Part shown: piece by piece, positions 38,176-52,610 of the stretch
How positions within the stretch are numbered: position 1 is the first letter of the stretch
Layout of the letters: every line of letters starts with the position of its first letter
Origin: an uncultured Eubacteriales bacterium
Lineage (GTDB): Bacteria > Bacillota > Clostridia > Lachnospirales > Lachnospiraceae
Assembly (NCBI GenBank): GCA_900549105.1
Contig: URND01000002.1
Coordinates: 3,581-67,580 of the forward strand
Direction of reading: 5' to 3'
Length of the DNA: 64,000 nt
Notes under the pieces: model-generated
Database searches by the model: none
What the model saw: only the letters and a program-made list of their open reading frames with translations
What the model was told of the DNA's origin: nothing
Translations under genes and position numbers: made by a program

Positions 38176-38267
38176 ATTGTAGAATGTACAACTTTATAAT
38201 CGCTTCATATATAATTGATAAATAGTTTTTTGTCTAAAATAGAGATAAAAATTTGGGAGGAATTAAA

Positions 38268-40295
38268 ATGATACTACCGTTAAGTGTAAAAAATCAAAGT
38301 ATAGAGTCGTCTGGGATTACGAATGACTATAAGGAAGCTATATGTGAATATATATGGAATGGTCTTGAAGCTCATGCGACAGAAATTAATATTAATTTTA
38401 GTCATAATATTGCCTATGGTATTGATAACCTCTCAATTTCAGATAATGGTGATGGGATTAGTTATGAGGAATTAGGAGATACATTTGGGGCATTTTTGGC
38501 TTCAAAGAAGAATCTTATGTCTTTGAAAATGAAATCTAAAGCGAATAAAGGAAAAGGACGATTTTCTTTTATGGCATTTGCATGTAGTGCAAAATGGACT
38601 ACGGTATATAATGATGGTAAAGAATTAAAAACATATGATATTATTTTGGAAAATGACAAAAAGGAAGTAATAATTTGTACGGAGCCAACAACGTCAATAG
38701 AAAGAAACACAGGTACTAAAGTATTTTTTAGTAATATTTATTCTTTGACAACAGAGAACATGGCTTTTGATGTACTTGAGCCTGTATTACTAAAAGAATT
38801 TGCATGGTTTTTATATTTATTCAAAAATCGAAATATAAGTATTTGTGTAGATGGAACACCTATTAATTATGGAAAATATATTAATACTGAGTTAAGCGAG
38901 AAAGTATCAAAAATAATTGATAATATCAGATTTGAAATTAATTTAGTTGTATGGCAAGAATCTATAAAAGAAAAATTTTGTTGTTATTATTTTGATAGTA
39001 CTGATATTGTAAGGGGTAGAGAAACTACGACATTTAATAGAAATACTATTGATTTTAATCATAGTGTTTTTGTAAAGTCTGAATTTTTTGATGAGAAAGA
39101 TGATATAGAAAAACAATTGGACGCTTTGCAAATTAGTTTGTTTGAATCAGAGGATGACAAAAAAACATTTAAAAAATTAAAAAAATTTATATCTTCTTTT
39201 ATCGAAAAAAAGATTGGAACATATATGTCACAAAGAGCAGAAAAGGCAATAAAAGAGATGATGGAGGAAAGAAAAACCTTTCCGACATTTTCCGATGATG
39301 CTTATGGGAGGATGAGAAAGCAAGACTTAGTAAAGATTACAGAAGAAATATATAAGATTGAACCTAAAATATTTTATAAACTTAAACCTATTCAGGAAAA
39401 ATCTTTGCTTGGATTCTTAAATTTGCTTTTAAATTCTGAGGAAAGAGAGAATGTATTATCAATAATTGAACAAATCGTTGAATTGTCGCCAGAGCAAAGG
39501 CAGGATTTTTCAGATATGTTGAAAAAAACTAAATTGGAAAATATTATAGAGTCTATAAAATTTATAGAGGGTAGATACAAAGTTATAGAACTGCTGAAAA
39601 CTATAGTATACGATTTGACGCAATTTGCTAATGAAAGAGATCATATTCAGAAAATTGTAGAACAACATTTTTGGCTTTTTGGAGAACAATATAATCTTGC
39701 CAGTGCCGATCAGCAGATGAAAAAGGCATTAGAGAAATACATCAATATTTTATATGGAGAAAACGACATTAATGCAACATTAAAGGAGGATGTTGAACAA
39801 GAGCGAAGAATGGATATTTTTATGTGTAATTCAAGAGAAGTCGAGAATTCATTTGAAACAGTGTTAGAAGAGAATATCATTGTAGAATTAAAAGCGCCAA
39901 AAGTTTCGTTATCAAAAAAGGTTTTAAGGCAAGTTGAAGATTATATGGATTTTATAAGAAAACAACCAGACTTTAATAGCGAGTACAGACGGTGGAAATT
40001 TATTGCTGTATGCAGACGAGTTGATGAAGATATAAAAAGTCGTTATGAAACCTTTAAAGATAAAGGAAAAATAGGATTAGTAGTACAAGTAGAAAATTAT
40101 GAAGTGTATGCATACACATGGGACGATGTATTTAAAAGTTTTGAACTAAGACATGCCCCAATTTTGAAGCGGTTAAAATATGACAGAGAACAGTTGGCAA
40201 AAGAACTTATGGATGAAGTTGCATCGGATGAGGGGCGTGGTAAAGTAGATGCTTTAACAGACATAGCGGTATCAACTATTTCAAACGTACAATAA
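38268..40295 (+). CDS. GHKL (histidine-kinase/MORC-type) ATPase fused to a C-terminal PD-(D/E)xK-like nuclease domain
   Basis: GGGAGG lies 8 nt upstream of the ATG at 38268. The N-box-like motif is 'EAICEYIWNGLEAHATEININF', the G1 box is 'ISDNGDGIS' and the G2-like motif is 'GKGRFSFMAF'. The C-terminal 'RMDIFMC...IIVELKAPK' gives a D...E-x-K pattern. Confidence 0.55.
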   Translation: MILPLSVKNQSIESSGITNDYKEAICEYIWNGLEAHATEININFSHNIAYGIDNLSISDNGDGISYEELGDTFGAFLASKKNLMSLKMKSKANKGKGRFSFMAFACSAKWTTVYNDGKELKTYDIILENDKKEVIICTEPTTSIERNTGTKVFFSNIYSLTTENMAFDVLEPVLLKEFAWFLYLFKNRNISICVDGTPINYGKYINTELSEKVSKIIDNIRFEINLVVWQESIKEKFCCYYFDSTDIVRGRETTTFNRNTIDFNHSVFVKSEFFDEKDDIEKQLDALQISLFESEDDKKTFKKLKKFISSFIEKKIGTYMSQRAEKAIKEMMEERKTFPTFSDDAYGRMRKQDLVKITEEIYKIEPKIFYKLKPIQEKSLLGFLNLLLNSEERENVLSIIEQIVELSPEQRQDFSDMLKKTKLENIIESIKFIEGRYKVIELLKTIVYDLTQFANERDHIQKIVEQHFWLFGEQYNLASADQQMKKALEKYINILYGENDINATLKEDVEQERRMDIFMCNSREVENSFETVLEENIIVELKAPKVSLSKKVLRQVEDYMDFIRKQPDFNSEYRRWKFIAVCRRVDEDIKSRYETFKDKGKIGLVVQVENYEVYAYTWDDVFKSFELRHAPILKRLKYDREQLAKELMDEVASDEGRGKVDALTDIAVSTISNVQ

Positions 40296-42097: not shown

Positions 42098-42523
42098 GTG
42101 AGTAATCGTAAGGCAGCTTTTTCGGCAGAAAGCTATACCCTTTCGGGCATTCCGCATGTCAGATGCTTCGCATGGGCGCGCTGCGTCAGGCTTCGCGCGA
42201 TAAGGTATGATAAAGATATTTTAAATACTATACCGTATTATGATAAAGCTTATAATCAGATAGCAGATGTGGTTTCAGCTGCATTTTCAAATAAGGCAGT
42301 ATCTTGGCTGGATATAGGCTGTGGGACTGGCAAAATGGCAAAAGTGGCATTTGAACAATGCAATGTGGAAAAGATGATTTGTACGGATAATTCATCTGTT
42401 ATGTTAAAGGTTGCAAGACAGAAAATCAGTTTTCCCAGTGTAGAATTTTTAAAACTTCCAGTAGAAGAAATAAACTATGATTCGCAATTTGATGTAATTA
42501 CTTCTATCTTGGTGAATCACTAG
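42098..42523 (+). pseudogene. class I SAM methyltransferase, C-terminally truncated, with copy 1 of a 66-bp repeat embedded in its 5' end
   Basis: Motif I 'LDIGCGTGK' is present. The ORF ends at '...ILVNH' before the usual post-IV motifs, and the downstream frame is broken by several stops. Confidence 0.45.
42142..42207 (+). repeat. 66-bp GC-rich repeat, copy 1
   Basis: ttcgggcattccgcatgtcagatgcttcgcatgggcgcgctgcgtcaggcttcgcgcgataaggtat. It is about 91% identical to copy 2 at 47176-47241 in the same orientation. Confidence 0.8.
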
Positions 42524-42752
42524 ATGACATTTGAGCAGATACAATACAGAATATTTTCCAATAACAATACAAGAACAAATTAAGATTCTAAGAGATTGTG
42601 GCTTTATGAATGTAGAGATTTTTTGGTGTTCATATATGCAGGTTGGAATTTTAGCAATATGACGAATATGGAAATGTGCAAGGTATGTATTCAGTAAATT
42701 CAGGTATGCAAGAATGAAAAAATAGAGTAAAATAAAGAAAAGTGTGCAGAGA

Positions 42753-44046
42753 GATGATAGATTTGAATATGGAGTTGCGATTGGCAGATAATTCTGCCAT
42801 TGTATCAGAAATAGTAGAAAAAACAATCAAAACTATATATCCCCATTATTACCCGGCAGGTGCAGTGCAGTTTTTTCTTGATTTGCACTGCAAAGAGAGG
42901 ATTGAAGAGGCGATGACTTCCGAAGAAATCTATCTTGTGTTGGTACAGGAAAAACTGATAGGTACTGGGAGTATTCGGAAGAATGAGATTTGCAGATTAT
43001 TTATTTTGCCTGAGTATCAGGGAAAGGGCTATGGAAGCAGATTGATGGATTTGCTGGAAGCAAGGATTTTTGAGAATTATCCAAAGGTTCATGTGGCCGC
43101 TTCTTTTCCGGCGGAAAGTATGTATTTGAAACGGGGATATCAGATTGTATCCTACGAAAAAATTGAAGCAGAAAACGGAGATTTCCTTTGCTATCATATT
43201 ATGGAGAAAAGAAACGGGGAAGGAAGCTGTTTGTATGGAAAAGGGCCTGTAAAGGAGAGCGGTATGGTTAGAAAACACGGAAAAGAGCCATATAATATTG
43301 TGGTTTTGCATGGCGGGCCGGGAGCAGCAGGCTCAGCCTTTGGACTTGCAAGGCTGATTTCAAAAGAGTTTGGCGTCCTTGAGCCGATGCAGTCAAAATA
43401 TACGATTGAGGAGCTGGAAGAAGAGTTAATGGAGCAAATTGAAGAGAGTTGCGCTGGAAAAGTTATTTTGGCAGGACATTCCTGGGGCGCATGGCTGGCA
43501 GGATTATTTGCAGAAAGATTTCCGGATAAAGTGGAAAAAGTAATTTTGATTGGCAGCGGTCCTTTGGATGAATATTATGTTCCTCAAATCGGAGAACGCA
43601 GAAAAGAAAATATGTCATCAGAGGAAGCGGAAGAATTTGAAAAGATTCTGCGGCAGTTAGAGAACGGTTTTGGAGAGAAGGATGAATACCTGCAGCGATT
43701 AGGTGAAATATGTGATAAAGCAGACGGATATCATGAAGAGGAAGCTTTGAGGGATAAGGCAGACGTAAACGGAGATTTGTACGAAAAGGTTTGGAAGGAA
43801 GCTGCAGAGTTACGGAAATCCGGAAAACTGCTGGAAAGGCTTGGAAGGATTTCCTGCCCGATGGTGCTGATTCAAGGAGCGGTTGACCCACATCCGGCGG
43901 CGGGGGTTATTGAACCATTAAAAGCTCTTAATGTGGACATAAAATCATATGTACTTGATAAATGCGGTCATACTCCGTGGAGAGAAAAATATGCCAGAGA
44001 AGAATTTGCGAGGGTTTTGTTTTCTGAATTACGGGCCGGAAAATGA
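42753..44046 (+). CDS. GNAT N-acetyltransferase fused to an alpha/beta-hydrolase domain
   Basis: The GNAT motif A is 'ICRLFILPEYQGKGYGSRLMDLLE'. The hydrolase nucleophile elbow is 'LAGHSWGAWLAG' (GxSxG). Confidence 0.65.
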
Positions 44047-44137
44047 ATAGCGGCTATTCCGGATATTGATGAACTGGGAATTATAAATCCGCATATATTA
44101 TATAGAGATTCAATAAAATAATAAGGTATGCAGGAAA

Positions 44138-45058
44138 ATGAAAGAATATGTAGTAATATCCCTGGAAACACATTTATTTTTTGCCAGAATTATGAGGGAG
44201 CATGCGTTGTTTCTTCTGGCTGCCTTTCCGGCAGGGGAAGTGGAATATAGAAAACAGGCGGATTGGTTTCGAGAACAGTTTGAAAAAGTATTAGGGCATA
44301 CGGTAGGGCTTGCCAATGGAATAGCAGGCAAAGATGTACTGGGTTCCGGCGAAGTGTTCACTGAATTTACGGAAATGGCGGAGCAGCAGACAAGAAGGTT
44401 GACCAGGATTCCGATTAATATTCGGATTACGCAGGCGGAACAGAGATTGCGAGCCGGCGATGGAATCGGTTGTCAGAACAGAAGAATGGTACAGCAGGTG
44501 CGTCTCCTAAATCAGAGAGCCCTGTATCTGATGGATGGATTGATTGCATTTAAAGAGAAAATCTTGCAGGAGATTGGGGCCTGTCATCTGTATACAGCGA
44601 ATTATCCGCTGTTGATTGAGCATATTCTGCGGGAGGCAAAATTATATCGGCAGATTATAACTGAACTGGAAGAAAAGGGATGTATGCCGCCAAAAAATTT
44701 GAAAGAGGCAGAATTGTTCTGGAATCAGATTATGATGGAACATGCCATGTTTATTCGTGGGCTGCTTGACCCGACAGAATGTGAGCTTATGAAAACAGCA
44801 GATGATTTTGTCGGTGACTATTGTCGTTTATTGGAAGAGGCGAGAAAACAGGATTGCCGTACGCTAGATGCATTGACAAGAAAAACGCTGGAAACGACGG
44901 AACAGTATCGCGACTTTAAAGCGGCAGGTACGGAAGAAATTACAGGCTGCGGCATACGTTCCATTATTCTGCCATTGCTGGCAGACCACGTGCTCCGGGA
45001 AGCCAATCATTATCTGCGCATCCTTAAAACAGAGGGTGGCAACGGAGAATGGACTTAA
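44138..45058 (+). CDS. DUF2935-like protein (repeated 'E-H-A-L/M-F' helical motifs), function unknown
   Basis: The recurring motifs 'IMREHALFL', 'IMMEHAMFIRGL' and 'LADHVLREANHY' are as I recall for DUF2935. There are no catalytic motifs. Confidence 0.45.
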   Translation: MKEYVVISLETHLFFARIMREHALFLLAAFPAGEVEYRKQADWFREQFEKVLGHTVGLANGIAGKDVLGSGEVFTEFTEMAEQQTRRLTRIPINIRITQAEQRLRAGDGIGCQNRRMVQQVRLLNQRALYLMDGLIAFKEKILQEIGACHLYTANYPLLIEHILREAKLYRQIITELEEKGCMPPKNLKEAELFWNQIMMEHAMFIRGLLDPTECELMKTADDFVGDYCRLLEEARKQDCRTLDALTRKTLETTEQYRDFKAAGTEEITGCGIRSIILPLLADHVLREANHYLRILKTEGGNGEWT

Positions 45059-45186
45059 TATTCTGCCAGGTGAATATGTGAAGAAAAAATTTATCCCCCA
45101 CTTTATTACCTGCCTGCGTTATAATAGGTAATAAGGTGGGTAAATATATGTCTGAAATGAAAATGCACGCGTGATGCAAGGAGGAT

Positions 45187-45591
45187 ATGCTTATGCAAAA
45201 GAGAAAGAATGATTTGAATTTTGATAAATTTATAAAATTCCCGATGCCTGAGAAAATATTTAACGGTCCAAAAATAAAAGTCAGAGAAGATGGGCAGGTT
45301 TTCATCAGTCCATCGGTGATTAAAATGATAAAGGAAAATAACGAGGAGATGTGGGTGGATTCTCGGTACTCGGAGGATTATAAAACCATCGCCATAAAAC
45401 TGGATGGGGACAAGAGTTTCAGGTTTCCGAGAGGCGGTGCGATGAAGTTTAAGAAATGGAAAGAGATTCTCCAAAAGTTTGGTTATTCGATACCGGCTGT
45501 GTACTGGCTGGAATGGAATCCGGAAGAAAATCTCTGGATTGGCCGGCTTCAGGAAGTATCCGAATCTCCGGATATCGGGAGAATGGGATGA
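45187..45591 (+). CDS. hypothetical protein (134 aa)
   Basis: The ORF has an ATGA stop/start overlap with the next gene at 45588, indicating translational coupling. Confidence 0.4.
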   Translation: MLMQKRKNDLNFDKFIKFPMPEKIFNGPKIKVREDGQVFISPSVIKMIKENNEEMWVDSRYSEDYKTIAIKLDGDKSFRFPRGGAMKFKKWKEILQKFGYSIPAVYWLEWNPEENLWIGRLQEVSESPDIGRMG

Positions 45592-46112
45592 TAAAACGGC
45601 AGAAGGAGATGTCGGATTATGAATATACACAGCTGGACAAAATGGTATACCAGTTATACTTAGTTTATGGAAAAGGTTTGGAATTTGATGAATGTCGAAG
45701 TATTGCCTTTCTGAAATATGTTGAAGTGAGGAATGAACTGGATAACTTTTATAATGAGGATTTGCTGTGGATATATTCCCAAAATCGGATTATTGATGCC
45801 TTTAAGGATGAGCGGAGAAAAAGAAATGATAAGATTCGTTTAGAGGCAAAATTATCTTTGAATCAATTTATTGGAGATTCCGATGAGCCGGTTTATACTA
45901 TTTTATTTCCTGTTCGTGGGAACTTTGTTAATCATGTGTGCTTATGGAATGATATGAGACGATTTGGAAAAAGGTGCTATAAGATTTTATCTGCCCTGTA
46001 CTGGGGCGATGAGGACTGGGAGATTGTAGACGGGTTGAAAATATCTGCGAAGGAATACTTTGAAATGAAAAATTATCTTAGAATAAAATTGAAAGAGTAT
46101 GTGGAAATATGA
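45588..46112 (+). CDS. small sigma-70-family-like protein (ECF/TcdR-sized, regions 2 and 4)
   Basis: 'LLWIYSQNRIIDAFKDERRKRN' is region-2.2-like. 'CYKILSALYWGDEDWEIVDGLKISAKEYFEMKNYLRIKLKE' is a region-4-like HTH. The protein is 175 aa and coupled to both the upstream and downstream genes. Confidence 0.4.
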   Translation: MIKRQKEMSDYEYTQLDKMVYQLYLVYGKGLEFDECRSIAFLKYVEVRNELDNFYNEDLLWIYSQNRIIDAFKDERRKRNDKIRLEAKLSLNQFIGDSDEPVYTILFPVRGNFVNHVCLWNDMRRFGKRCYKILSALYWGDEDWEIVDGLKISAKEYFEMKNYLRIKLKEYVEI

Positions 46113-47590
46113 GGAAGATAACAAAGAGAAGTATCCGGGATGAAGATATTGATATCGGGCGGATTTCGAAGCGCTTGGAAGAAATTGCGGCTGCAATTAA
46201 AATGAATAATAAGAATAATCTGACGGATATAAATGTCATTTGTGAAGAGATTTTTGGCCGGATTTTGGATAGATTGTATGATATCCATCTTGTGTCACTG
46301 TCCGCAAAAGTATCAGGGAATTTTATAGCAGTGGATTTGATTGATTACGAAAACAGAATCGCATTTCAGGTGACATCAAGGGATGATAGAGAAAAGATAG
46401 AGAAAACGATTGAAAAGTTTAATGGTTCTGATTTAATTGGGTATATCGATACTCTGAATATTCTTGTTTTAAATTCCAATATTCATCATTATAGAGAGCC
46501 GGATATTGTCCGCCTGGAAAATGGAAAAGAATTTTCCTATTCGAAAAACATTTTGAATTTTAACAAACTGATTGAAGAGATAGCTAAGAAAAATGTTGAG
46601 AAAAACGGATTTATTGTGGACGTATATGATATCATCAATATGGTATATGATTCCGGGCGGCTGCGTTATTTCAGTATAAACAGGAAAACGGAAATGCTGA
46701 TGCAGACGGAGAGTGATGACTTCGGTGATGTCAGATTGTGGAAGAAAGGGTACGGCGATATTCAACTGACAGCCTATATCCCACTGTCTTATGAGGAAGA
46801 GATATGCTGTATGATGGAAAATCGCCAGCATAATATATCCGGCGTGTATCCTACATTTAATCAGGATAAGCTGCTTGAAGATTATTTTGTTTCGGAAGAA
46901 GAATTTGAAAATAAGCATAATGTCGGCCGATTTGAGGATGAAGAAGAGATTTTTATGCAGATTGAAAACATGCGTATATGTGTCAATGCGCATACGGCCC
47001 ATCATATCTACAAATTATTTGAAGAATTAAAAGACGAGTATATCGCGGCTCAGAATCAAATCGCTTCTGTTCTGGGAGTCGAAGGGCTGAAAAAAGTAGG
47101 AAAAAAGTACCTGCTTATGACCATCGATGGGACGGCATGGAAGGAAATATTGTTTTTTGCGAAAAATCATGCCCATTCGGGCACCCCGCATGTCAGATGC
47201 TCCGCATGGGCGCGCTTCGTCAAGCTCCGCGCGATAAGGTATAGTTGTTTCAAGGAAGATGGCGAAGAGGAATGGAATATATTTAATAATTGCACGGGAG
47301 ACAGAGTTACATTGTCCTTGAATGTCTATGGAAAAATTCGCGGGGATATATTGGCAGAAATCTCTGTTGATTTATCGGAATTTGAGAATGATAAGTTGAA
47401 TTTGTATTGGAGTCCGGGGTACAAGTTTGATACAAATTGTATGGATTGTTTTGACAATGTTGTCAAATGGAAGGCGGATTATACGAAAGAGTGGATTGAA
47501 AACAAACTGTTAAAAAAGGCCCATGATTTTTGGGTCGAATATCATAAAAGAAATTCGGGATGGAGAAGATTATTTGGTGTAAAGGAGTGA
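46109..47590 (+). CDS. hypothetical 493-aa protein with an N-terminal conflict-system-like domain; copy 2 of the 66-bp repeat lies in its 3' third
   Basis: Its start overlaps the sigma-like gene (ATGA). The N-terminal ~110 aa 'INVICEEIFGRILDRLYDIHLVSLSAKVSGNFIAVDLIDYENRIAFQVTSRDDREKIEKTIEKF' resemble, by uncertain recall, the SMEK-type N-terminal domains described in NTP-dependent conflict systems. Confidence 0.4.
   Translation: MRKITKRSIRDEDIDIGRISKRLEEIAAAIKMNNKNNLTDINVICEEIFGRILDRLYDIHLVSLSAKVSGNFIAVDLIDYENRIAFQVTSRDDREKIEKTIEKFNGSDLIGYIDTLNILVLNSNIHHYREPDIVRLENGKEFSYSKNILNFNKLIEEIAKKNVEKNGFIVDVYDIINMVYDSGRLRYFSINRKTEMLMQTESDDFGDVRLWKKGYGDIQLTAYIPLSYEEEICCMMENRQHNISGVYPTFNQDKLLEDYFVSEEEFENKHNVGRFEDEEEIFMQIENMRICVNAHTAHHIYKLFEELKDEYIAAQNQIASVLGVEGLKKVGKKYLLMTIDGTAWKEILFFAKNHAHSGTPHVRCSAWARFVKLRAIRYSCFKEDGEEEWNIFNNCTGDRVTLSLNVYGKIRGDILAEISVDLSEFENDKLNLYWSPGYKFDTNCMDCFDNVVKWKADYTKEWIENKLLKKAHDFWVEYHKRNSGWRRLFGVKE
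47176..47241 (+). repeat. 66-bp GC-rich repeat, copy 2
   Basis: ttcgggcaccccgcatgtcagatgctccgcatgggcgcgcttcgtcaagctccgcgcgataaggtat. It is read in the same frame as copy 1 (..PHVRC.AWAR.V.LRAIRY). Confidence 0.8.
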
Positions 47591-47594
47591 TATC

Positions 47595-48626
47595 ATGTTG
47601 GCCTATACTTATATTGAAAAGGGAAAATTTGAATTGCGGGAGAAACCAAAGCCGGAGCTGCAGAATGAGAAGGATGCTATTGTCAGGATAACCCTTGCCA
47701 GTATCTGTACAAGCGATTTACATATTAAGCACGGTTCAGTTCCAAGAGCTGTACCGGGGGTGACCGTGGGGCATGAGATGGTAGGCATCGTGGAGACCGT
47801 GGGGGATGCGGTAAAAACAGTAAAGCCGGGAGACAGGGTCACTATAAATGTGGAAACATTTTGCGGAGAATGTTTTTTCTGTAAAAACGGTTATGTAAAT
47901 AATTGTACCGATTCCGATGGCGGATGGGCGTTGGGCTGCCGTATTGACGGCGGACAGGCGGAGTATGTCCGTGTGCCTTATGCAGACCAGGGATTAAACC
48001 GGATACCGGATAGTGTGACGGATGAACAGGCATTATTTGTCGGAGACATTCTTGCTACAGGATTTTGGGCGGCTCGGATATCTGAAATTAAACCGGAGGA
48101 TACGGTGCTTATTATCGGTGCGGGTCCTACCGGAATATGTACCTTATTGTGCGTGATGCTGAAAAAGCCGAAACGGATTATCGTATGCGAGAAAGATAAA
48201 GTTCGGAGAGAATTTGTACAGAAATATTATCCGGAGGTAAGTGTTGTTGAGCCGGAGCAGCTTCAGCAATTTGTAAAAGAAAACAGCGATCACGGCGGAG
48301 CGGATGTGATACTGGAGGTTGCCGGGGCAAAAGATACTTTCAGGATGGCATGGGAAAATGCAAGACCCAATGCCATTGTGACTGTTGTGGCCTTGTATGA
48401 CGAGGCGCAGATATTGCCGCTGCCGGATATGTATGGGAAAAATCTGACTTTCAAAACGGGCGGTGTCGATGGCTGTGACTGCGAAGAAATACTTCGGCTG
48501 ATTGAGGAAGGAAAAATTGATACAACGCCTTTGATTACCCATACATATCCTCTTGAGCATATTGCAGAAGCCTATGATTTGTTTGAAAACAGGCGGGACA
48601 ATGTTATCAAAGTGGCTATTAAATAA
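47595..48626 (+). CDS. Zn-dependent alcohol dehydrogenase (MDR superfamily)
   Basis: The catalytic Zn motif is 'GHEMVGIVETVGDAV', the structural Zn motif is 'CGECFFCKNGYVNNC' and the Rossmann motif is 'IIGAGPTG'. Confidence 0.85.
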   Translation: MLAYTYIEKGKFELREKPKPELQNEKDAIVRITLASICTSDLHIKHGSVPRAVPGVTVGHEMVGIVETVGDAVKTVKPGDRVTINVETFCGECFFCKNGYVNNCTDSDGGWALGCRIDGGQAEYVRVPYADQGLNRIPDSVTDEQALFVGDILATGFWAARISEIKPEDTVLIIGAGPTGICTLLCVMLKKPKRIIVCEKDKVRREFVQKYYPEVSVVEPEQLQQFVKENSDHGGADVILEVAGAKDTFRMAWENARPNAIVTVVALYDEAQILPLPDMYGKNLTFKTGGVDGCDCEEILRLIEEGKIDTTPLITHTYPLEHIAEAYDLFENRRDNVIKVAIK

Positions 48627-48634
48627 AATTTTTC

Positions 48635-49096
48635 TTAATTTAGAAGCCAGATGAAAAAGTTTAAGTACCCTGCAAAGGCTACCCATAGCAGGTATGGCAG
48701 CATCAGATATTCGGTTGATTTTGATATTTGACGAAAGAGAACGGTTGTTTTGAGAATCAGCAGCCACAGTAAAATGAGCCAGATAAATGCAAACAGGTAC
48801 AGCTTCAGATTGAAAAAGATAATCGGCCAGAAAAAATTAAATACAAGCTGAATACCGTATGCAGTCAAAGCAGCGGTGTGTGGTTTCCCGGATGTAAGCA
48901 CCAGATAGGATGCGATTCCCATAAGGATATATAGAATCGTCCATACCACAGGGAACAGCCAGCCGGGAGGGGCCAGAAACGGTTTATTAAGAGATTCAAA
49001 CATTTCCATGTTGTTTCGGGTTAAAAGTGCAGATAAGCCTCCGATTGCGAGCGGTATGGCAAGACAGGCAATCAGGTTTTTCCATTGAATTTTCAA
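48635..49096 (-). CDS. TspO/MBR-family (tryptophan-rich sensory) membrane protein
   Basis: 153 aa with five transmembrane helices and a Trp-rich sequence 'PPGWLFPVVWTILY', convergent with the alcohol dehydrogenase gene. Confidence 0.8.
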   Translation of the reverse strand: MKIQWKNLIACLAIPLAIGGLSALLTRNNMEMFESLNKPFLAPPGWLFPVVWTILYILMGIASYLVLTSGKPHTAALTAYGIQLVFNFFWPIIFFNLKLYLFAFIWLILLWLLILKTTVLFRQISKSTEYLMLPYLLWVAFAGYLNFFIWLLN

Positions 49097-49241: not shown

Positions 49242-52200
49242 ATGGGATTTTTAAACAGGATTTTTGGTTATAAAAAAGTAAAAATGGATAATTCTCCAAA
49301 GGATTCTATTATATCGGAAAATTCCATTCCTAAGAATGAAAATGTTATCAAATTGATTGAACTGAAATCTTTTATTGGTTCTTTAATGGATGCTGACAGG
49401 TATATTGCAAAGAGTGAATATAATGAAGAAGTAAAGAACTGCTCTGATGTCATTTCATTTTTTAATGTATTGAAAAGCAGCGGAATGTTGGATAAGTTTT
49501 GCCAGCTTAATGGCATTTCTCTGGCCGAAATTGAAGATACTTTATATTGTTATGAAAATATAGAAAAGCAGATGGCGCAGCATAATGATGATTTTGTTGT
49601 GAGGACCATGGTTAGGGAGAAGTTTTACCTGGATAATGTTTTGAAAGCAGTTGACCCGGTAATTTCTTTGGATGAAGACCAGAGAAGGGTGATTTTAACG
49701 GATGAAGATTATTGTTTAGTTATTGCAGGTGCAGGTGCCGGAAAGACAACAACCGTTGCTGCAAAGGTAAAATATCTTGTGGATAAGCAGGAGGTTAAAC
49801 CTTCGCAGATTCTTGTCGTTTCATATACAAATAAAGCGGTAAATGAGCTGAAGGAAAAGATACATGGCGCCTTAAAAATTGAGTGCCCGATTGCAACATT
49901 TCATTCTGTGGGAAATACTATCATACATGCGAATACACCGGATGTACAGTTGAAAATTGTTGAAGATTATAGATTATATTTTGTAATCAGAGATTATTTT
50001 CGAGGTTCTCTTATGCGGAAAGAGAGCGTTGTCAATAAACTGATTATGTTTTTTGCTTCCTATTTTGATGCACCGTATGAGGGTGACGATTTAAATGGAT
50101 TCTTCAATAATATTGCGAAAGCAAATTATTCAACGATGAGAAGCGACCTGGAAGATTTTAAGCGTGAAGTCATTGATGCAAGAACGAAGAAGTCAGTCAC
50201 CATTCGAAATGAGGTTTTGAGGTCTCATCAGGAGGTGGAGATTGCAAATTTTCTTTATCTTAACAACATTGATTATGAGTATGAGCCTATTTATCCGTAT
50301 AATATGCCATATGCCCGGAAACCATATACGCCGGATTTTGTCATCTATCAGGATGGCAGGAGCGCCTATATAGAACATTTTGGAATATCGGAAAATGGAC
50401 AAAACGACATATATTGCCAGGAAGAATTGGACCGATATAAAAAGGCGGTAAATGATAAAGTAAAGTTACATAAGCAGCATGGAACGACATTGATTTATAC
50501 ATTTTCATCATATAATGACAAAAAACCGTTGTTAGTTCATCTTCGCGAGGAGATGGAGGAAAAAGGCTTCGAACTTAAACAAAGGTCAGATAAAGAAGTA
50601 ATGGAAATGTTGGTCGCAGGAGAAGAGAACCGATATGTCCGTAAGTTAGTCAATCTTATCTGCCGGTTTATTTCTAATTTCAAAGTCAATGGATATACGG
50701 AGGAGGAGTTTAGCCGCATGTATCATTCTACCCAGAATGTACGGAGCAGACTGTTTTTGGATATTTGTAATGATTGTTATCTGGAGTATGAAAGATGGTT
50801 GAAAGAGAACAGCGCGGTTGACTTTGAAGATATGATTAATGAATCTGCCAAAATTCTCAAAGAAGTAAAAGAAATGAAGCAGAAACTGGATTATAAGTAC
50901 ATTATCGTGGATGAGTATCAGGATATTTCCAGACAGCGATTTGACCTTGTTAAGGCATTGTCTGAAGTGACAAATGCAAAGATTATTGCGGTTGGCGATG
51001 ACTGGCAGTCTATTTATGCCTTCAGCGGTTCGGATATTACTCTTTTCACTAAATTTAAGGAGAAGATGGGCTATGCCAGGATGCTGAAGATTGTAAAGAC
51101 TTATAGAAATTCTCAGGATGTCATAGATATTGCCGGGAACTTTATACAGCGTAATACGGAACAGATTCCTAAACAGTTGATTTCAGATAAGAGAATAGAG
51201 AATCCTGTGATTATATATACATATGATAGTACATTAAAAAGCAGAGATGGAAGTCGTAGAAACGGAGCAAATTATGCGTTGGCGCGTGCGGTAGAAACGG
51301 CGTTAGCCCAACTCCTGGAGTATAAGAAAAAAGAAAATAAAGAGCCGGGACCGATTTTATTGCTGGGAAGATTTGGCTTCGATGGAGATAATCTGGAAAG
51401 GTCAGGCTTGTTTGAATATATAAATCGGGGAAATAAAGTGAAGAGTGTTAAATATCCGAAATTGGATATTACCTTTATGACGGCCCATTCATCTAAGGGG
51501 TTGGGATATGATGATGTTATTATTGTGAATGGAAAAAATGAAACTTATGGATTTCCGTCAAAAATTGAAGATGACCCGGTTTTGGCTTTTGTGATTAAAG
51601 GGGACAGGTCTATTGATTATGCGGAAGAGAGAAGATTATTCTATGTTGCTATGACGAGAACAAAGAATAGAGTTTTCCTGATTGCACCGGAGAAAAATCC
51701 ATCAGAGTTTCTGCTTGAATTAAAGAGGGATTATAAGAATGTTATCCTATGTGGGGAGTGGAATGATGAAAACATTTCAACCACATTGAAGAAGTCATGC
51801 CCTCTTTGCGGATTTCCGATGCAGCTTAAATATAAAAGAGCATACGGTTTGCGGCTTTATATATGTACGAATGAGCCGGAGATTTGTGGGTTTATGACTA
51901 ATGATTATCGCTCTGGCAAGATGTCGATTCAAAAATGTGATAAATGTCAGGATGGATATCTGATTGTAAAACAGGGACAGAATAAAGATTTCTTTCTGGG
52001 ATGTACGAATTATAAAGCAGATGGAAGTGGATGTGGGAAGATGGTCAGCAAGAAGGCTTTTTATGAGCAGATGGGATATGAGACAGAGGGACCCGCAGTC
52101 AGACAGGATATCAGGACTCAGGGAAAAATCGAGGGAAAGTCCCGGAAAGTGGTTTTAGATATCGAAAGAAAGCCTGTTGTCAGTGAAGAACTTAAAGATG

Positions 52201-52610
52201 ACTATATCGAAGTTGTGCGTGCGGATGTAAAACCGGTGATGTATGGAAAATATGATGTGAATGATTTGATCTATATGGTAATAAAAATACTTCAGGATAT
52301 CAGCAGAGACAGGTTTTACGGTGTAACAGTACTTGCTGATGTGCTGAAGGGAGTGACCAGTAAACAAATATTGGATGATAAATTGGATGAGATACCTGAA
52401 TTTGGCTTTTTAAAGGATATGCCCTGGGAAACAATTCAGGCAGTTATTGAGTGGATGATATATGAGCATTTGATTTTGAAGACAAAGGGAAGGTATCCGG
52501 TGCTGCATTCAACCTATGAAGGTTTACATTATTCAGAAATCATTACGCAAAATAAACTCAAAAAGCTTAAGAAATATTTAGAGGAAGAGGTGGTTCTATG
52601 GAATCCGTAG
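49242..52610 (+). CDS. UvrD/Rep-family SF1 helicase with an inserted PD-(D/E)xK-like module, C-terminal topoisomerase-type zinc ribbons and an RQC-like winged helix
   Basis: Walker A is 'AGAGAGKTTT', motif II is 'IIVDEYQDISR', motif III is 'IAVGDDWQSIYAFSG' and the motif VI region is 'FYVAMTRTKNRV'. The insert is 'EVEIANFLYLNNIDYEYEP...YTPDFVIYQDGRSAYIEHFG'. The Cys ribbons are 'CPLCGF...C', 'CDKCQDG' and 'CTNYKADGSGC'. The C-terminal region 'GVTVLADVLKG...YPVLHST' resembles the RecQ RQC winged helix. Confidence 0.75.
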   Translation: MGFLNRIFGYKKVKMDNSPKDSIISENSIPKNENVIKLIELKSFIGSLMDADRYIAKSEYNEEVKNCSDVISFFNVLKSSGMLDKFCQLNGISLAEIEDTLYCYENIEKQMAQHNDDFVVRTMVREKFYLDNVLKAVDPVISLDEDQRRVILTDEDYCLVIAGAGAGKTTTVAAKVKYLVDKQEVKPSQILVVSYTNKAVNELKEKIHGALKIECPIATFHSVGNTIIHANTPDVQLKIVEDYRLYFVIRDYFRGSLMRKESVVNKLIMFFASYFDAPYEGDDLNGFFNNIAKANYSTMRSDLEDFKREVIDARTKKSVTIRNEVLRSHQEVEIANFLYLNNIDYEYEPIYPYNMPYARKPYTPDFVIYQDGRSAYIEHFGISENGQNDIYCQEELDRYKKAVNDKVKLHKQHGTTLIYTFSSYNDKKPLLVHLREEMEEKGFELKQRSDKEVMEMLVAGEENRYVRKLVNLICRFISNFKVNGYTEEEFSRMYHSTQNVRSRLFLDICNDCYLEYERWLKENSAVDFEDMINESAKILKEVKEMKQKLDYKYIIVDEYQDISRQRFDLVKALSEVTNAKIIAVGDDWQSIYAFSGSDITLFTKFKEKMGYARMLKIVKTYRNSQDVIDIAGNFIQRNTEQIPKQLISDKRIENPVIIYTYDSTLKSRDGSRRNGANYALARAVETALAQLLEYKKKENKEPGPILLLGRFGFDGDNLERSGLFEYINRGNKVKSVKYPKLDITFMTAHSSKGLGYDDVIIVNGKNETYGFPSKIEDDPVLAFVIKGDRSIDYAEERRLFYVAMTRTKNRVFLIAPEKNPSEFLLELKRDYKNVILCGEWNDENISTTLKKSCPLCGFPMQLKYKRAYGLRLYICTNEPEICGFMTNDYRSGKMSIQKCDKCQDGYLIVKQGQNKDFFLGCTNYKADGSGCGKMVSKKAFYEQMGYETEGPAVRQDIRTQGKIEGKSRKVVLDIERKPVVSEELKDDYIEVVRADVKPVMYGKYDVNDLIYMVIKILQDISRDRFYGVTVLADVLKGVTSKQILDDKLDEIPEFGFLKDMPWETIQAVIEWMIYEHLILKTKGRYPVLHSTYEGLHYSEIITQNKLKKLKKYLEEEVVLWNP

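What the first reader, a model, noticed from the sequence alone, without database searches (positions are those of the whole stretch)
42142..47241. 66-bp GC-rich direct repeat (about 91% identical) bracketing a 5-kb accessory block
Copy 1 (42142-42207) and copy 2 (47176-47241) differ at 6 of 66 positions, are in the same orientation and are much more GC-rich than their surroundings. Each carries the internal direct repeat CCGCATG...CGCATGG and a GCGCGC...GCGCGC mini-palindrome. Both sit inside ORFs in the same reading frame: the 5' end of the truncated methyltransferase, and residues ~355-380 of the 493-aa protein. The enclosed 5 kb carries the truncated methyltransferase 3' part, the GNAT plus alpha/beta-hydrolase fusion, the DUF2935-like gene, a hypothetical gene, the sigma-like gene and most of the 493-aa gene. 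This looks like duplicated target or att sequence around an inserted block, or a small dispersed repeat element. Recombination between the copies would excise the block.
Basis: seen in the sequence. Interest (0 to 1): 0.55.

Follow-up and report, generated by a model that had tools for sequence, protein, structure and literature searches.

The report
Small mobile repeat inserted in-frame
The two GC-rich repeats are separate insertions of a roughly 70-bp mobile repeat (MITE-like, apparently undescribed) that is scattered through the genomes of a human-gut Lachnospiraceae lineage; they are not the ends of an inserted 5-kb block.

Summary
In detail: the 66-mers differ at 6 positions, and both lie in ORFs in the same frame. 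The full unit is 74 nt: 42135-42208 and 47169-47242.

The att or target-duplication reading is wrong.
- The same unit occurs at about 47 distinct sites (69 before merging orthologues) in Frisingicoccus-like gut contigs.
- Most copies are intergenic, in either orientation.
- About 20 sites come from one metagenome.
- Strains 2-4% diverged keep the same gene order whether the copy-2 site holds 0, 1 or 2 units. A third site, empty in the window at 48626/48627, is filled in others.

Five empty/filled site pairs give a 70-bp element (ACCC...AAGGT) with imperfect terminal inverted repeats. An AT is duplicated in four pairs, and the target consensus is Y-AT-R. Units also form head-to-tail arrays with a period of exactly 72 and variable copy number.

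Because 72 = 24 codons and four of six frames are open, the element survives inside genes:
- methyltransferase (+24 aa);
- SMEK-domain protein (+24 or +48 aa, in a low-confidence loop);
- a DUF2520 protein (+48 aa, opposite strand).
One insertion splits a gene.

No transposase partner was found. There was no match in Rfam, plasmids, phages or a literature string search. Verdict: a new member of a known kind, of moderate interest.

The parts
42135..42208 (+). Repeat copy 1 (site A). The 70-bp element is 42137-42206, flanked by AT at 42135-42136 and 42207-42208. It sits in frame in the N-terminus of the class I SAM methyltransferase ORF and encodes TLSGIPHVRCFAWARCVRLRAIRY.
   Evidence: The empty allele L063 reads GAAAGCT-AT-GATAGA where the window reads GAAAGCT-AT-[70 bp]-AT-GATAAA. 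The 223-aa homologues lack exactly these 24 aa. P0102 (246 aa) is a full-length methyltransferase that carries them.
47169..47242 (+). Repeat copy 2 (site B). The element is 47171-47240, flanked by AT. It sits in frame in the SMEK_N-domain protein and encodes AHSGTPHVRCSAWARFVKLRAIRY (residues 355-378).
   Evidence: The site is empty in L005-L008 and L064-L066 (469-aa proteins P0003-P0009), single in the window and L002, and holds two tandem units in L009-L012 (P0001, 517 aa). In the AlphaFold model residues 357-384 have pLDDT below 50 and follow directly after helix 341-354.
48620..48635 (.). Empty target site C. The ADH stop codon TAA ends at 48626. In other strains a copy of the same element sits between this stop and the convergent TspO gene.
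   Evidence: The window, L005-L008 read GCTATTAAATAAAATTTTTCTT. L002, L009-L012, L032 and L064-L066 carry the element there.
42098..42523 (+). Host gene 1: a truncated class I SAM-dependent methyltransferase ORF of 141 aa. Full-length relatives are 223 aa, or 246 aa with the element.
   Evidence: Pfam Methyltransf_25/11/31; alignment A8.
46109..47590 (+). Host gene 2: a SMEK_N-domain protein of 493 aa (469 aa without the element).
   Evidence: Pfam PF21941, E = 2.8e-33; alignment A3.

Best explanation
Both copies are independent insertions of a non-autonomous, MITE-like mobile repeat that is dispersed in the chromosomes of Frisingicoccus-like Lachnospiraceae.

Anatomy (shown). The element is 70 bp: ACCC[A/T]TTCGGGCA..CCG[C/T]ATGTCAGATGCT-N-CGCATGGGCGCGCT-N-CGTCA[A/G]GCT-N-CGCGCGA[T/C]AAGGT. 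Its ends are imperfect inverted repeats (ACCCATTCGGGC against ACCTTATCGCGC). It encodes no protein of its own.

Insertion (shown). It goes into an AT dinucleotide in an AT-rich, roughly palindromic Y-AT-R context. The AT ends up on both sides, so each event adds 72 bp.

After insertion (shown). Units multiply locally into head-to-tail arrays in which the ends are separated by that same AT, giving a period of exactly 72. Copy number at one site differs between strains.

Survival in genes (shown). Because 72 bp is 24 codons and four of the six frames lack stops, an insertion into a gene often leaves the frame open. It then persists as a 24-aa or 48-aa loop insertion.

Mechanism (inferred, not shown). 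A DDE transposase encoded elsewhere in the genome mobilises it in trans. The best fit is an IS30-type copy-out-paste-in enzyme. IS30 makes 2-bp duplications, prefers near-palindromic hot spots or its own ends, and produces head-to-tail end-to-end junctions with a 2-bp spacer. Identical neighbouring units point additionally to slippage or unequal crossing-over.
For: - Dispersal: 4 copies in other Lachnospiraceae or Frisingicoccus MAGs and 50 human-gut metagenome loci. nhmmer gave 104 hits, 87 of them unique, at 69 sites or arrays, about 47 after merging orthologues. Neighbouring genes are ordinary housekeeping genes: ThrRS, FeoB, PTS, MatE, Fe-ADH and others.
- Insertion polymorphism with known polarity: sites A, B, C, D and E each have an empty allele. 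Distant homologues lack the insert, so empty is the ancestral state.
- Duplication: a net gain of +72 with AT on both sides at sites A, B, D and E.
- Target: position -1 is T or C in 30 of 33 sites and position +1 is A or G in 28 of 33.
- Arrays: the period is 72 in every array. Copy number differs between orthologous loci: L026 x1 against L044 x3, L028 x2 against L050 x3, and 0, 1 or 2 units at site B.
- In-frame survival: methyltransferase, SMEK, and a DUF2520 protein on the opposite strand. One insertion falls in the stop-containing frame and splits a PDDEXK_2 gene.
- The IS30 properties are quoted from PMC9333248.
- Orientation relative to GC skew is 24:16, so there is no strand bias.
Against: - No transposase or full-length parent element with matching ends was found in the window, next to any copy, or as a multi-copy ORF in about 750 kb of fetched loci. 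Mobilisation in trans and the IS30-like assignment therefore rest on analogy only.
- Site C shows a net gain of +70, not +72, with no clean duplication.
- The terminal inverted repeats are short and imperfect: 8-9 of 12 positions, or 10 of 14 with the AT included.
- An AT duplication cannot be formally told apart from a 72-bp unit inserted without duplication.
- Copies were retrieved with an exact 25-nt core. Conservation of that core and the copy counts are therefore biased.
Confidence: 0.8

Rival explanations
1. The two copies are duplicated target or att sequences made when the 5-kb block between them integrated. Recombination between them would excise the block.
For: They are direct repeats in the same orientation flanking accessory-looking genes. 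The wider region varies between strains.
Against: The block is present in the same order in strains whose second site is empty, for example L005-L008. The same repeat occurs at dozens of unrelated sites. Each copy has its own empty allele with its own AT duplication. Synteny breakpoints lie elsewhere: window 46204 in L002, and upstream of GNAT in L064. No integrase or recombinase lies in the block.
Confidence: 0.02
2. The similarity is only a conserved protein-coding motif shared by the two proteins.
For: Both copies are translated in the same frame.
Against: Close homologues of both proteins lack exactly these 24 residues. Most copies are intergenic, and some are read on the opposite strand or in a frame with a stop codon. 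Identity is at the nucleotide level, and the variable positions are not synonymous sites.
Confidence: 0.01
3. It is a minisatellite-like interspersed repeat of the MIRU type. On this view it spreads and changes copy number by replication slippage, unequal crossing-over and gene conversion, without any dedicated transposase.
For: Tandem arrays of 1-3 units vary in copy number between strains. Adjacent units are identical in L044 (units 2 and 3) and in L050 (a and b). A 64-nt variant has lost 10 nt between GCT-N-CG direct repeats. No transposase was found.
Against: Slippage explains array growth but not the first arrival of a unit at about 47 unrelated sites with precise ends, an AT duplication and a Y-AT-R target. 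Terminal inverted repeats are present. The 64-nt deletion variant recurs at three unrelated loci, as expected if the variant itself is copied.
Confidence: 0.12
4. It is a single-strand, hairpin-recognised element of the REP/RAYT or IS200/IS605 (PATE) type, moved by an HUH tyrosine transposase.
For: On the minus strand the unit carries three C-GNA-G mini-hairpin motifs whose middle base is the most variable position. A 3-bp hairpin CCC-NTTC-GGG shows compensatory changes, CCT/AGG and CTC/GAG. All copies in the window locus point the same way.
Against: - There is no strand bias over 40 sites: 24:16 relative to GC skew.
- A 2-bp duplication and terminal inverted repeats are present, which this class lacks.
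- There is no conserved 4-5-nt left-flank target.
- There is no GTAG head and no inverted REP doublets.
- No Y1 transposase lies near any copy.
- The folding energy of single copies does not differ from shuffles, with z between -1.8 and +0.3.
Confidence: 0.05
5. It is primarily a functional cis-acting RNA or DNA module, such as an mRNA 3' stabiliser, a terminator or a protein-binding site, kept by selection rather than spread as selfish DNA.
For: Many copies sit 0-25 nt from gene ends. Sequence is strongly conserved except at three loop-like positions. There is weak covariation in one hairpin.
Against: There is no Rfam match and no significant fold. Orientation is unbiased. Copies occur inside coding regions and can disrupt a gene. 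Presence or absence varies between near-identical strains.
Confidence: 0.08

Closest known systems
Bacterial MITEs in general (for example Correia/NEMIS, RUP, ERIC/RU elements; reviews PMC10969869 and PMC3184786)
   Same: The element is tiny, non-coding and multi-copy. It has terminal inverted repeats and a short target duplication, shows insertion polymorphism between strains, lies mostly between genes, and is occasionally intragenic with an open frame.
   Different: - At 70 bp it is at the very small end of the range.
- The terminal repeats are only about 12-14 nt and imperfect.
- The duplication is AT, not the TA of IS630/Tc1-type MITEs.
- No parent IS is known.
- There is no sequence similarity to any described family in Rfam, plasmid or phage collections, or a literature string search.
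Rickettsia palindromic elements (RPE)
   Same: They insert into protein-coding genes without breaking the frame and add a peptide segment that the host protein tolerates (PMC10969869). Here three proteins carry 24-aa or 48-aa inserts. The SMEK insert maps to a low-confidence loop directly after a helix.
   Different: RPEs are about 100-150 bp, are confined to Rickettsia, and lie predominantly in ORFs. This element is 70 bp, is found in Lachnospiraceae, is mostly intergenic, and forms tandem arrays. There is no sequence relationship.
MIRU-type interspersed VNTRs of Mycobacterium (for example the 57-bp in-frame VNTR in leuA, PMC2704214)
   Same: Units of 40-100 bp are dispersed at tens of loci. 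They are arranged head to tail, their copy number varies by strain, and their lengths are compatible with an open reading frame.
   Different: Here there are terminal inverted repeats, a defined 2-bp duplication, and empty alleles with precise boundaries. These point to transposition as the founding event. Arrays are short, at 1-3 units.
IS30-family insertion sequences (mechanistic analogue only)
   Same: IS30 makes a 2-bp target duplication, prefers near-palindromic targets, inserts next to its own ends, and gives exclusively head-to-tail end-to-end junctions with a 2-bp spacer (PMC9333248). This matches the AT duplication, the Y-AT-R target, and arrays with an AT between the ends of adjacent units.
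   Different: No IS30-family transposase and no full-length element with these ends was seen. The link is an inference from behaviour.
REP/REPIN-RAYT and IS200/IS605-derived PATEs
   Same: They are short, GC-rich, hairpin-containing, mostly extragenic repeats.
   Different: Here there is no strand bias, no GTAG motif, no inverted doublets and no associated Y1 transposase. A duplication and terminal inverted repeats are present.

Membership tests
MITE (non-autonomous DNA transposon) | Small size and no coding capacity for a transposase | tested here: met
   The unit is 70 bp, or 72 with one AT.
MITE (non-autonomous DNA transposon) | Terminal inverted repeats | tested here: met
   ACCC[A/T]TTCGGGC against the reverse complement of GCGCGATAAGGT matches at 8-9 of 12 positions, or 10 of 14 with the AT included. 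The repeats are short and imperfect.
MITE (non-autonomous DNA transposon) | Target-site duplication, shown by comparing empty and filled alleles | tested here: met
   An AT lies on both sides and once in the empty allele at sites A, B, D and E, with a net gain of +72. Site C is an exception at +70.
MITE (non-autonomous DNA transposon) | Many dispersed copies and insertion polymorphism between strains | tested here: met
   There are about 47 non-orthologous sites, and about 20 in one metagenome. Sites B and C occur in all four presence/absence combinations.
MITE (non-autonomous DNA transposon) | An autonomous parent IS with the same ends in the same genomes | not testable with these tools
   None was found in the window, beside any copy, or in about 750 kb of loci. 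No complete genome of the lineage was available.
IS30-mobilised element | 2-bp duplication, near-palindromic target, and head-to-tail end junctions with a 2-bp spacer | tested here: met
   The IS30 properties are taken from PMC9333248.
IS30-mobilised element | An IS30-family DDE transposase that recognises these ends | not testable with these tools
   No such gene was seen, and binding or activity cannot be tested in silico here.
IS630/Tc1-mariner-type MITE | TA target duplicated at both ends | tested here: not met
   The symmetric parse gives AT, not TA. A TA parse makes the element ends asymmetric, and it predicts +70 per insertion and a 70-nt array period. The observed values are +72 at 4 of 5 sites and a period of 72.
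IS200/IS605-derived PATE or REP/RAYT | No duplication, a fixed 4-5-nt left-flank target, and strand-biased insertion | tested here: not met
   A duplication is present, no conserved left flank exists beyond Y-AT, and orientation is 24:16.
Rickettsia palindromic element | Membership of one of the RPE sequence families, about 100-150 bp, in Rickettsia | tested here: not met
   The size (70 bp) and the host (Lachnospiraceae) both differ. The resemblance is functional only.
Known structured RNA family (Rfam 15) | A score at or above a family's gathering threshold | tested here: not met
   There were no hits at gathering thresholds. The best overlapping hits were chance-level, with E = 0.13-5.

The most novel reading that the evidence does not exclude
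The element may be more than a passive MITE. On this reading it is a structured module: three C-GNA-G (or U-N-C) mini-hairpins with free, hypervariable loop bases, plus a covarying terminal hairpin. A recombinase not yet identified, possibly domesticated, would handle it. Its in-frame 72-bp arrays would act as a contingency (VNTR) mechanism that varies proteins in a defence-island-like region, for example 0, 1 or 2 units in the SMEK-domain protein.
Probability: 0.07. Interest if true: 0.65.

Novelty: new member of a known kind. Interest (0 to 1): 0.35.

Why it matters
- It corrects a tempting misreading. These direct repeats do not mark the ends of a mobile island.
- It documents a small mobile repeat, apparently undescribed, that is currently polymorphic among human-gut Lachnospiraceae strains.
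- Such elements break metagenome assemblies; several contigs here end inside a copy.
- They create spurious small ORFs, such as P0095-P0101.
- They can add peptide loops to proteins or split genes.
- They provide ready-made strain-typing markers, both presence/absence and VNTR.
- If the partner transposase is found, the system would be a compact model for MITE mobilisation and in-frame tolerance in gut Firmicutes.

Tried and rejected
- Rfam, at gathering and permissive thresholds, on the window, the 5.6-kb region, one copy and a triple array: nothing credible.
- Single-sequence folding of both strands: not better than shuffles.
- Alignment folding and pair counts on 49 copies: only modest covariation, mostly in the 3-bp terminal hairpin. 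Some of the supporting copies are orthologous or belong to one subfamily, so this was not used as strong evidence.
- A search with the four open-frame peptides joined into one query: it returned only tiny ORFs made by tandem dimers, not the host proteins, because of how the word index works.
- Viral contigs, plasmids and phages: no copies.
- Literature string search for the core sequence: none.
- Search for a parent transposon:
  - Pfam on ORFs lying between or beside copies found only housekeeping genes. One weak Cas12f-TNB zinc-ribbon hit is the C-terminus of a large PKD-domain protein.
  - Scans for end-like sequences in the window were at chance level.
  - Pfam on 30 window ORFs found no transposase. 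A weak IS110 hit lies in a BcrAD-type ATPase and falls below the family's cut-off.
  - All-against-all ORF clustering of the fetched loci found no multi-copy ORF.
- The TA-duplication (IS630-type) model was considered because the flanks read Y-A-TA...TA-T-R. It was rejected because it predicts +70 per event and a 70-nt array period.
- The co-orientation with neighbouring genes seen in a first rough count did not hold against GC skew: 24:16.

Full report
**Observation**

The repeat is real. Window 42142-42207 and 47176-47241 differ at 6 of 66 positions. The shared stretch is slightly longer than reported: 74 nt, ATACCC...AAGGTAT, at 42135-42208 and 47169-47242, and the flanks beyond it are unrelated. 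A 31-nt core occurs exactly twice in the window and never in 100 shuffles. The copies are 58-62% GC, against 43% for the window. Both lie in ORFs in the same phase: residues 13-37 of a 141-aa methyltransferase fragment and residues 354-378 of a 493-aa SMEK_N-domain protein.

**It is a dispersed repeat, not a pair**

- An exact-core scan of species-representative genomes found four more copies, in three uncultured Lachnospiraceae MAGs and a Frisingicoccus MAG. All four are intergenic and in unrelated contexts.
- A scan of metagenome contigs returned 50 human-gut loci.
- A profile search over everything fetched gave 104 hits, 87 of them unique, at 69 sites or arrays. About 47 remain after merging orthologous sites.
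- About 20 sites come from one sample at uniform coverage of 12-15x, so a single genome carries at least some twenty sites. This is a lower bound, because retrieval required an exact 25-nt core.
- Several contigs end inside a copy.
- Neighbouring genes are ordinary chromosomal genes: ThrRS, FeoB, PTS, MatE, Fe-ADH, TruA and others.
- No copy was found in viral contigs, plasmids or phages.

**The 5-kb "block" is not bracketed by its own insertion scars**

Contigs from related strains are 2-4% diverged across this region. L005-L011 keep the order GntR-CAT-methyltransferase-GNAT/hydrolase-DUF2935-two hypothetical genes-SMEK-ADH-TspO. L012 is cut off at its left end and carries an IS21-type insertion. 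L002 shares only the SMEK-ADH-TspO part with the window. Three sites differ in state between strains.

| Site | Window | Other strains |
|---|---|---|
| A (methyltransferase) | filled | filled in every related locus that reaches the methyltransferase; empty in the more distant L063 |
| B (SMEK) | one unit | empty in L005-L008 and L064-L066; one unit in L002; two tandem units in L009-L012 |
| C (between the ADH stop and TspO) | empty (48626/48627) | empty in L005-L008; filled in L002, L009-L012, L032 and L064-L066 |

The states of B and C occur in all four combinations. Where synteny does break, it breaks away from the repeats: L002 diverges at window 46204, and L064 lacks GntR-CAT-methyltransferase. 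No allele joins the left flank of copy 1 to the right flank of copy 2.

**Polarity and anatomy of insertion**

SMEK homologues from 98% down to about 50% identity lack exactly the 24 residues...FFAKNH|N[C/Y]FKEDG. Methyltransferase homologues of 223 aa likewise read ...FSAES|YDRDIL. P0102 (246 aa) is a full-length enzyme that carries the insert. Empty is therefore the ancestral state.

At the DNA level:

| Site | Empty allele | Filled allele | Net gain |
|---|---|---|---|
| A | GAAAGCT-AT-GATAGA | GAAAGCT-AT-[ACCC...AAGGT]-AT-GATAAA | +72 |
| B | AAAAATC-AC-AATTGT | AAAAATC-AT-[GCCC...AAGGT]-AT-AGTTGT | +72 |
| D (L037 against L035/L057) | one AT | the same AT pattern on both sides | +72 |
| E (L051 against L056) | GAAAAT-AT-AATTTT | the same AT pattern on both sides | +72 |
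| C | AAATAAAATTTTTCTT | no clean duplication, within A/T runs | +70 |

The simplest description is a 70-bp element plus a duplicated AT. An equivalent description is a 72-bp unit inserted without duplication.

The element ends are imperfect inverted repeats: ACCCATTCGGGC against ACCTTATCGCGC. Across 33 non-redundant sites the base before the left AT is a pyrimidine in 30, and the base after the right AT is a purine in 28. The surroundings are A/T-rich, so the target is roughly palindromic, Y-AT-R.

**Arrays**

Units also occur head to tail with a period of exactly 72, so adjacent ends are separated by one AT. Copy number differs between orthologous loci: L026 x1 against L044 x3, L020/L056 x1 against L043 x2, L028 x2 against L050 x3, and 0, 1 or 2 units at site B. 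Some neighbouring units are identical, which suggests slippage or unequal exchange. Others differ at 3-4 positions. Units truncated at the 5' end precede full units at four loci. A 64-nt variant that has lost 10 nt between GCT-N-CG repeats recurs at three unrelated loci.

**Why it survives in genes**

Seventy-two bases are 24 codons, and four of the six frames of the consensus lack stop codons.

- Sites A and B use the same plus-strand frame.
- A DUF2520/Rossmann protein (L023) carries two units read on the opposite strand.
- The insertion in L037 fell in the plus-strand frame that contains TAA, and it splits a PDDEXK_2 gene that is intact in L035.

Insertion is therefore frame-blind; what persists is filtered afterwards. 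An AlphaFold model of the window SMEK protein has mean pLDDT 83.7 and pTM 0.82. It places the insert directly after helix 341-354, in a segment (357-384) with pLDDT below 50. Low confidence is expected there in any case, because no other aligned sequence has the insert.

**Structure**

- Rfam gives nothing.
- Single copies fold no better than shuffles.
- On 49 distinct copies the 3-bp hairpin CCC-NTTC-GGG shows compensatory CCT/AGG and CTC/GAG changes, and one pair of the GCGCG/CGCGC helix shows T-A. The number of independent events is small.
- The three most variable columns (34, 49 and 59, at 1.3-1.6 bits) are each the middle base of a GCT-N-CG motif, which reads C-GNA-G on the other strand.
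- Orientation relative to local GC skew is 24:16, so there is no strand bias.

**Mechanism**

Shown:
- dispersed copies with precise ends;
- ancestral empty sites;
- a 2-bp duplication at four of five sites;
- a palindromic target preference;
- head-to-tail arrays with a 2-bp spacer;
- no strand bias.

Inferred: a transposase encoded elsewhere mobilises the element in trans. These behaviours match what is described for IS30: copy-out-paste-in transposition, a 2-bp duplication, near-palindromic hot spots, insertion next to its own ends, and exclusively left-end-to-right-end junctions with a 2-bp spacer (PMC9333248). No such transposase, and no full-length element with these ends, was found in the window, beside any copy, or as a multi-copy ORF in about 750 kb of loci.

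I put about 0.8 on "independent insertions of a mobile MITE-like repeat" and about 0.35 on the IS30-type partner specifically. A recombination-only, MIRU-like history is the main rival, at about 0.12. HUH-type ssDNA elements are disfavoured by the duplication, the terminal repeats and the lack of strand bias.

**Comparison with known families, and novelty**

In kind it is a bacterial MITE (reviews PMC10969869 and PMC3184786). It resembles Rickettsia palindromic elements in being tolerated in frame inside proteins. It resembles MIRU-type VNTRs in its array behaviour (compare the 57-bp in-frame leuA VNTR, PMC2704214). It is a member of neither family by sequence, size or host.

A literature search for the core string found nothing, and the MITE review that was read mentions no Clostridia or Firmicutes family. 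I therefore rate it a new member of a known kind, of moderate interest. Its practical relevance is to strain typing, assembly breaks and spurious ORFs in gut Lachnospiraceae.

Noticed in passing
window 42742-44046: GNAT acetyltransferase and alpha/beta-hydrolase form a single 434-aa ORF in the window. Related strains (L005-L011, L064) have two adjacent genes of about 160 and 260 aa, so this looks like a fusion by loss of the stop and spacer.
   Followed up: partly
window 42098-42523: The methyltransferase exists in several states between strains: 141 aa here and in L005/L007; 127 aa in L008-L011 (P0103); full-length 246 aa with the repeat (P0102); and 223 aa without it (P0104 and others). The window copy looks like a decaying gene.
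   Followed up: partly
window 38253-40295 and upstream of GntR in L005, L009, L064: The segment left of GntR differs between strains. The window has a 680-aa HATPase_c_3 protein. L009 has a GmrSD-type protein. L005 has RhuM, DUF4238 and a D5-type primase. L064 has HsdR plus GmrSD and lacks GntR-CAT-methyltransferase. This looks like a defence-island or integration hot spot.
   Followed up: no
window 49242-52610: The 1122-aa UvrD-type helicase with RQC and topoisomerase-type zinc-ribbon domains is absent at this position in related strains. They carry a PhdYeFM/ParE toxin-antitoxin pair directly (L005) or after an extra 355-aa gene (L009), so this is a second variable slot next to TspO.
   Followed up: no
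L012:2249-4596: One related strain has an IS21-type insertion (rve/Mu-transposase-C plus IstB) between DUF2935 and the small hypothetical genes. It is unrelated to the 70-bp repeat.
   Followed up: no
repeat columns 34, 49 and 59 (window 42168, 42183, 42193 and 47202, 47217, 47227): The three most variable positions of the repeat family are each the middle base of a GCT-N-CG motif (C-GNA-G on the other strand). They vary by transversions as well as transitions, while the flanking bases are nearly invariant. Whether this reflects free loop bases or hypermutable loop bases was not resolved.
   Followed up: partly
window 48620-48635 against L002:4078-4151: Insertion at the ADH/TspO site adds 70 bp, not 72 bp, relative to the empty alleles, and there is no clean AT duplication. 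The empty alleles carry two extra A's in an A/T run. It is unclear whether this is an indel at insertion, a later homopolymer change or a footprint.
   Followed up: partly
L009-L012, L005-L008, L064-L066, L002 and the window (sites B and C): Presence or absence at the two polymorphic sites occurs in all four combinations among haplotype groups that are 2-4% apart. This implies recombination between strains in this region, or repeated gain or loss.
   Followed up: partly
Relatives annotate this stretch differently, as genes of 132+60+84 aa or 132+174 aa.
   Followed up: no
P0095-P0101 (metagenome proteins): Public protein collections contain small "hypothetical proteins" of 59-130 aa that are simply translations of tandem copies of this repeat. 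These are annotation artefacts caused by its open frames.
   Followed up: yes
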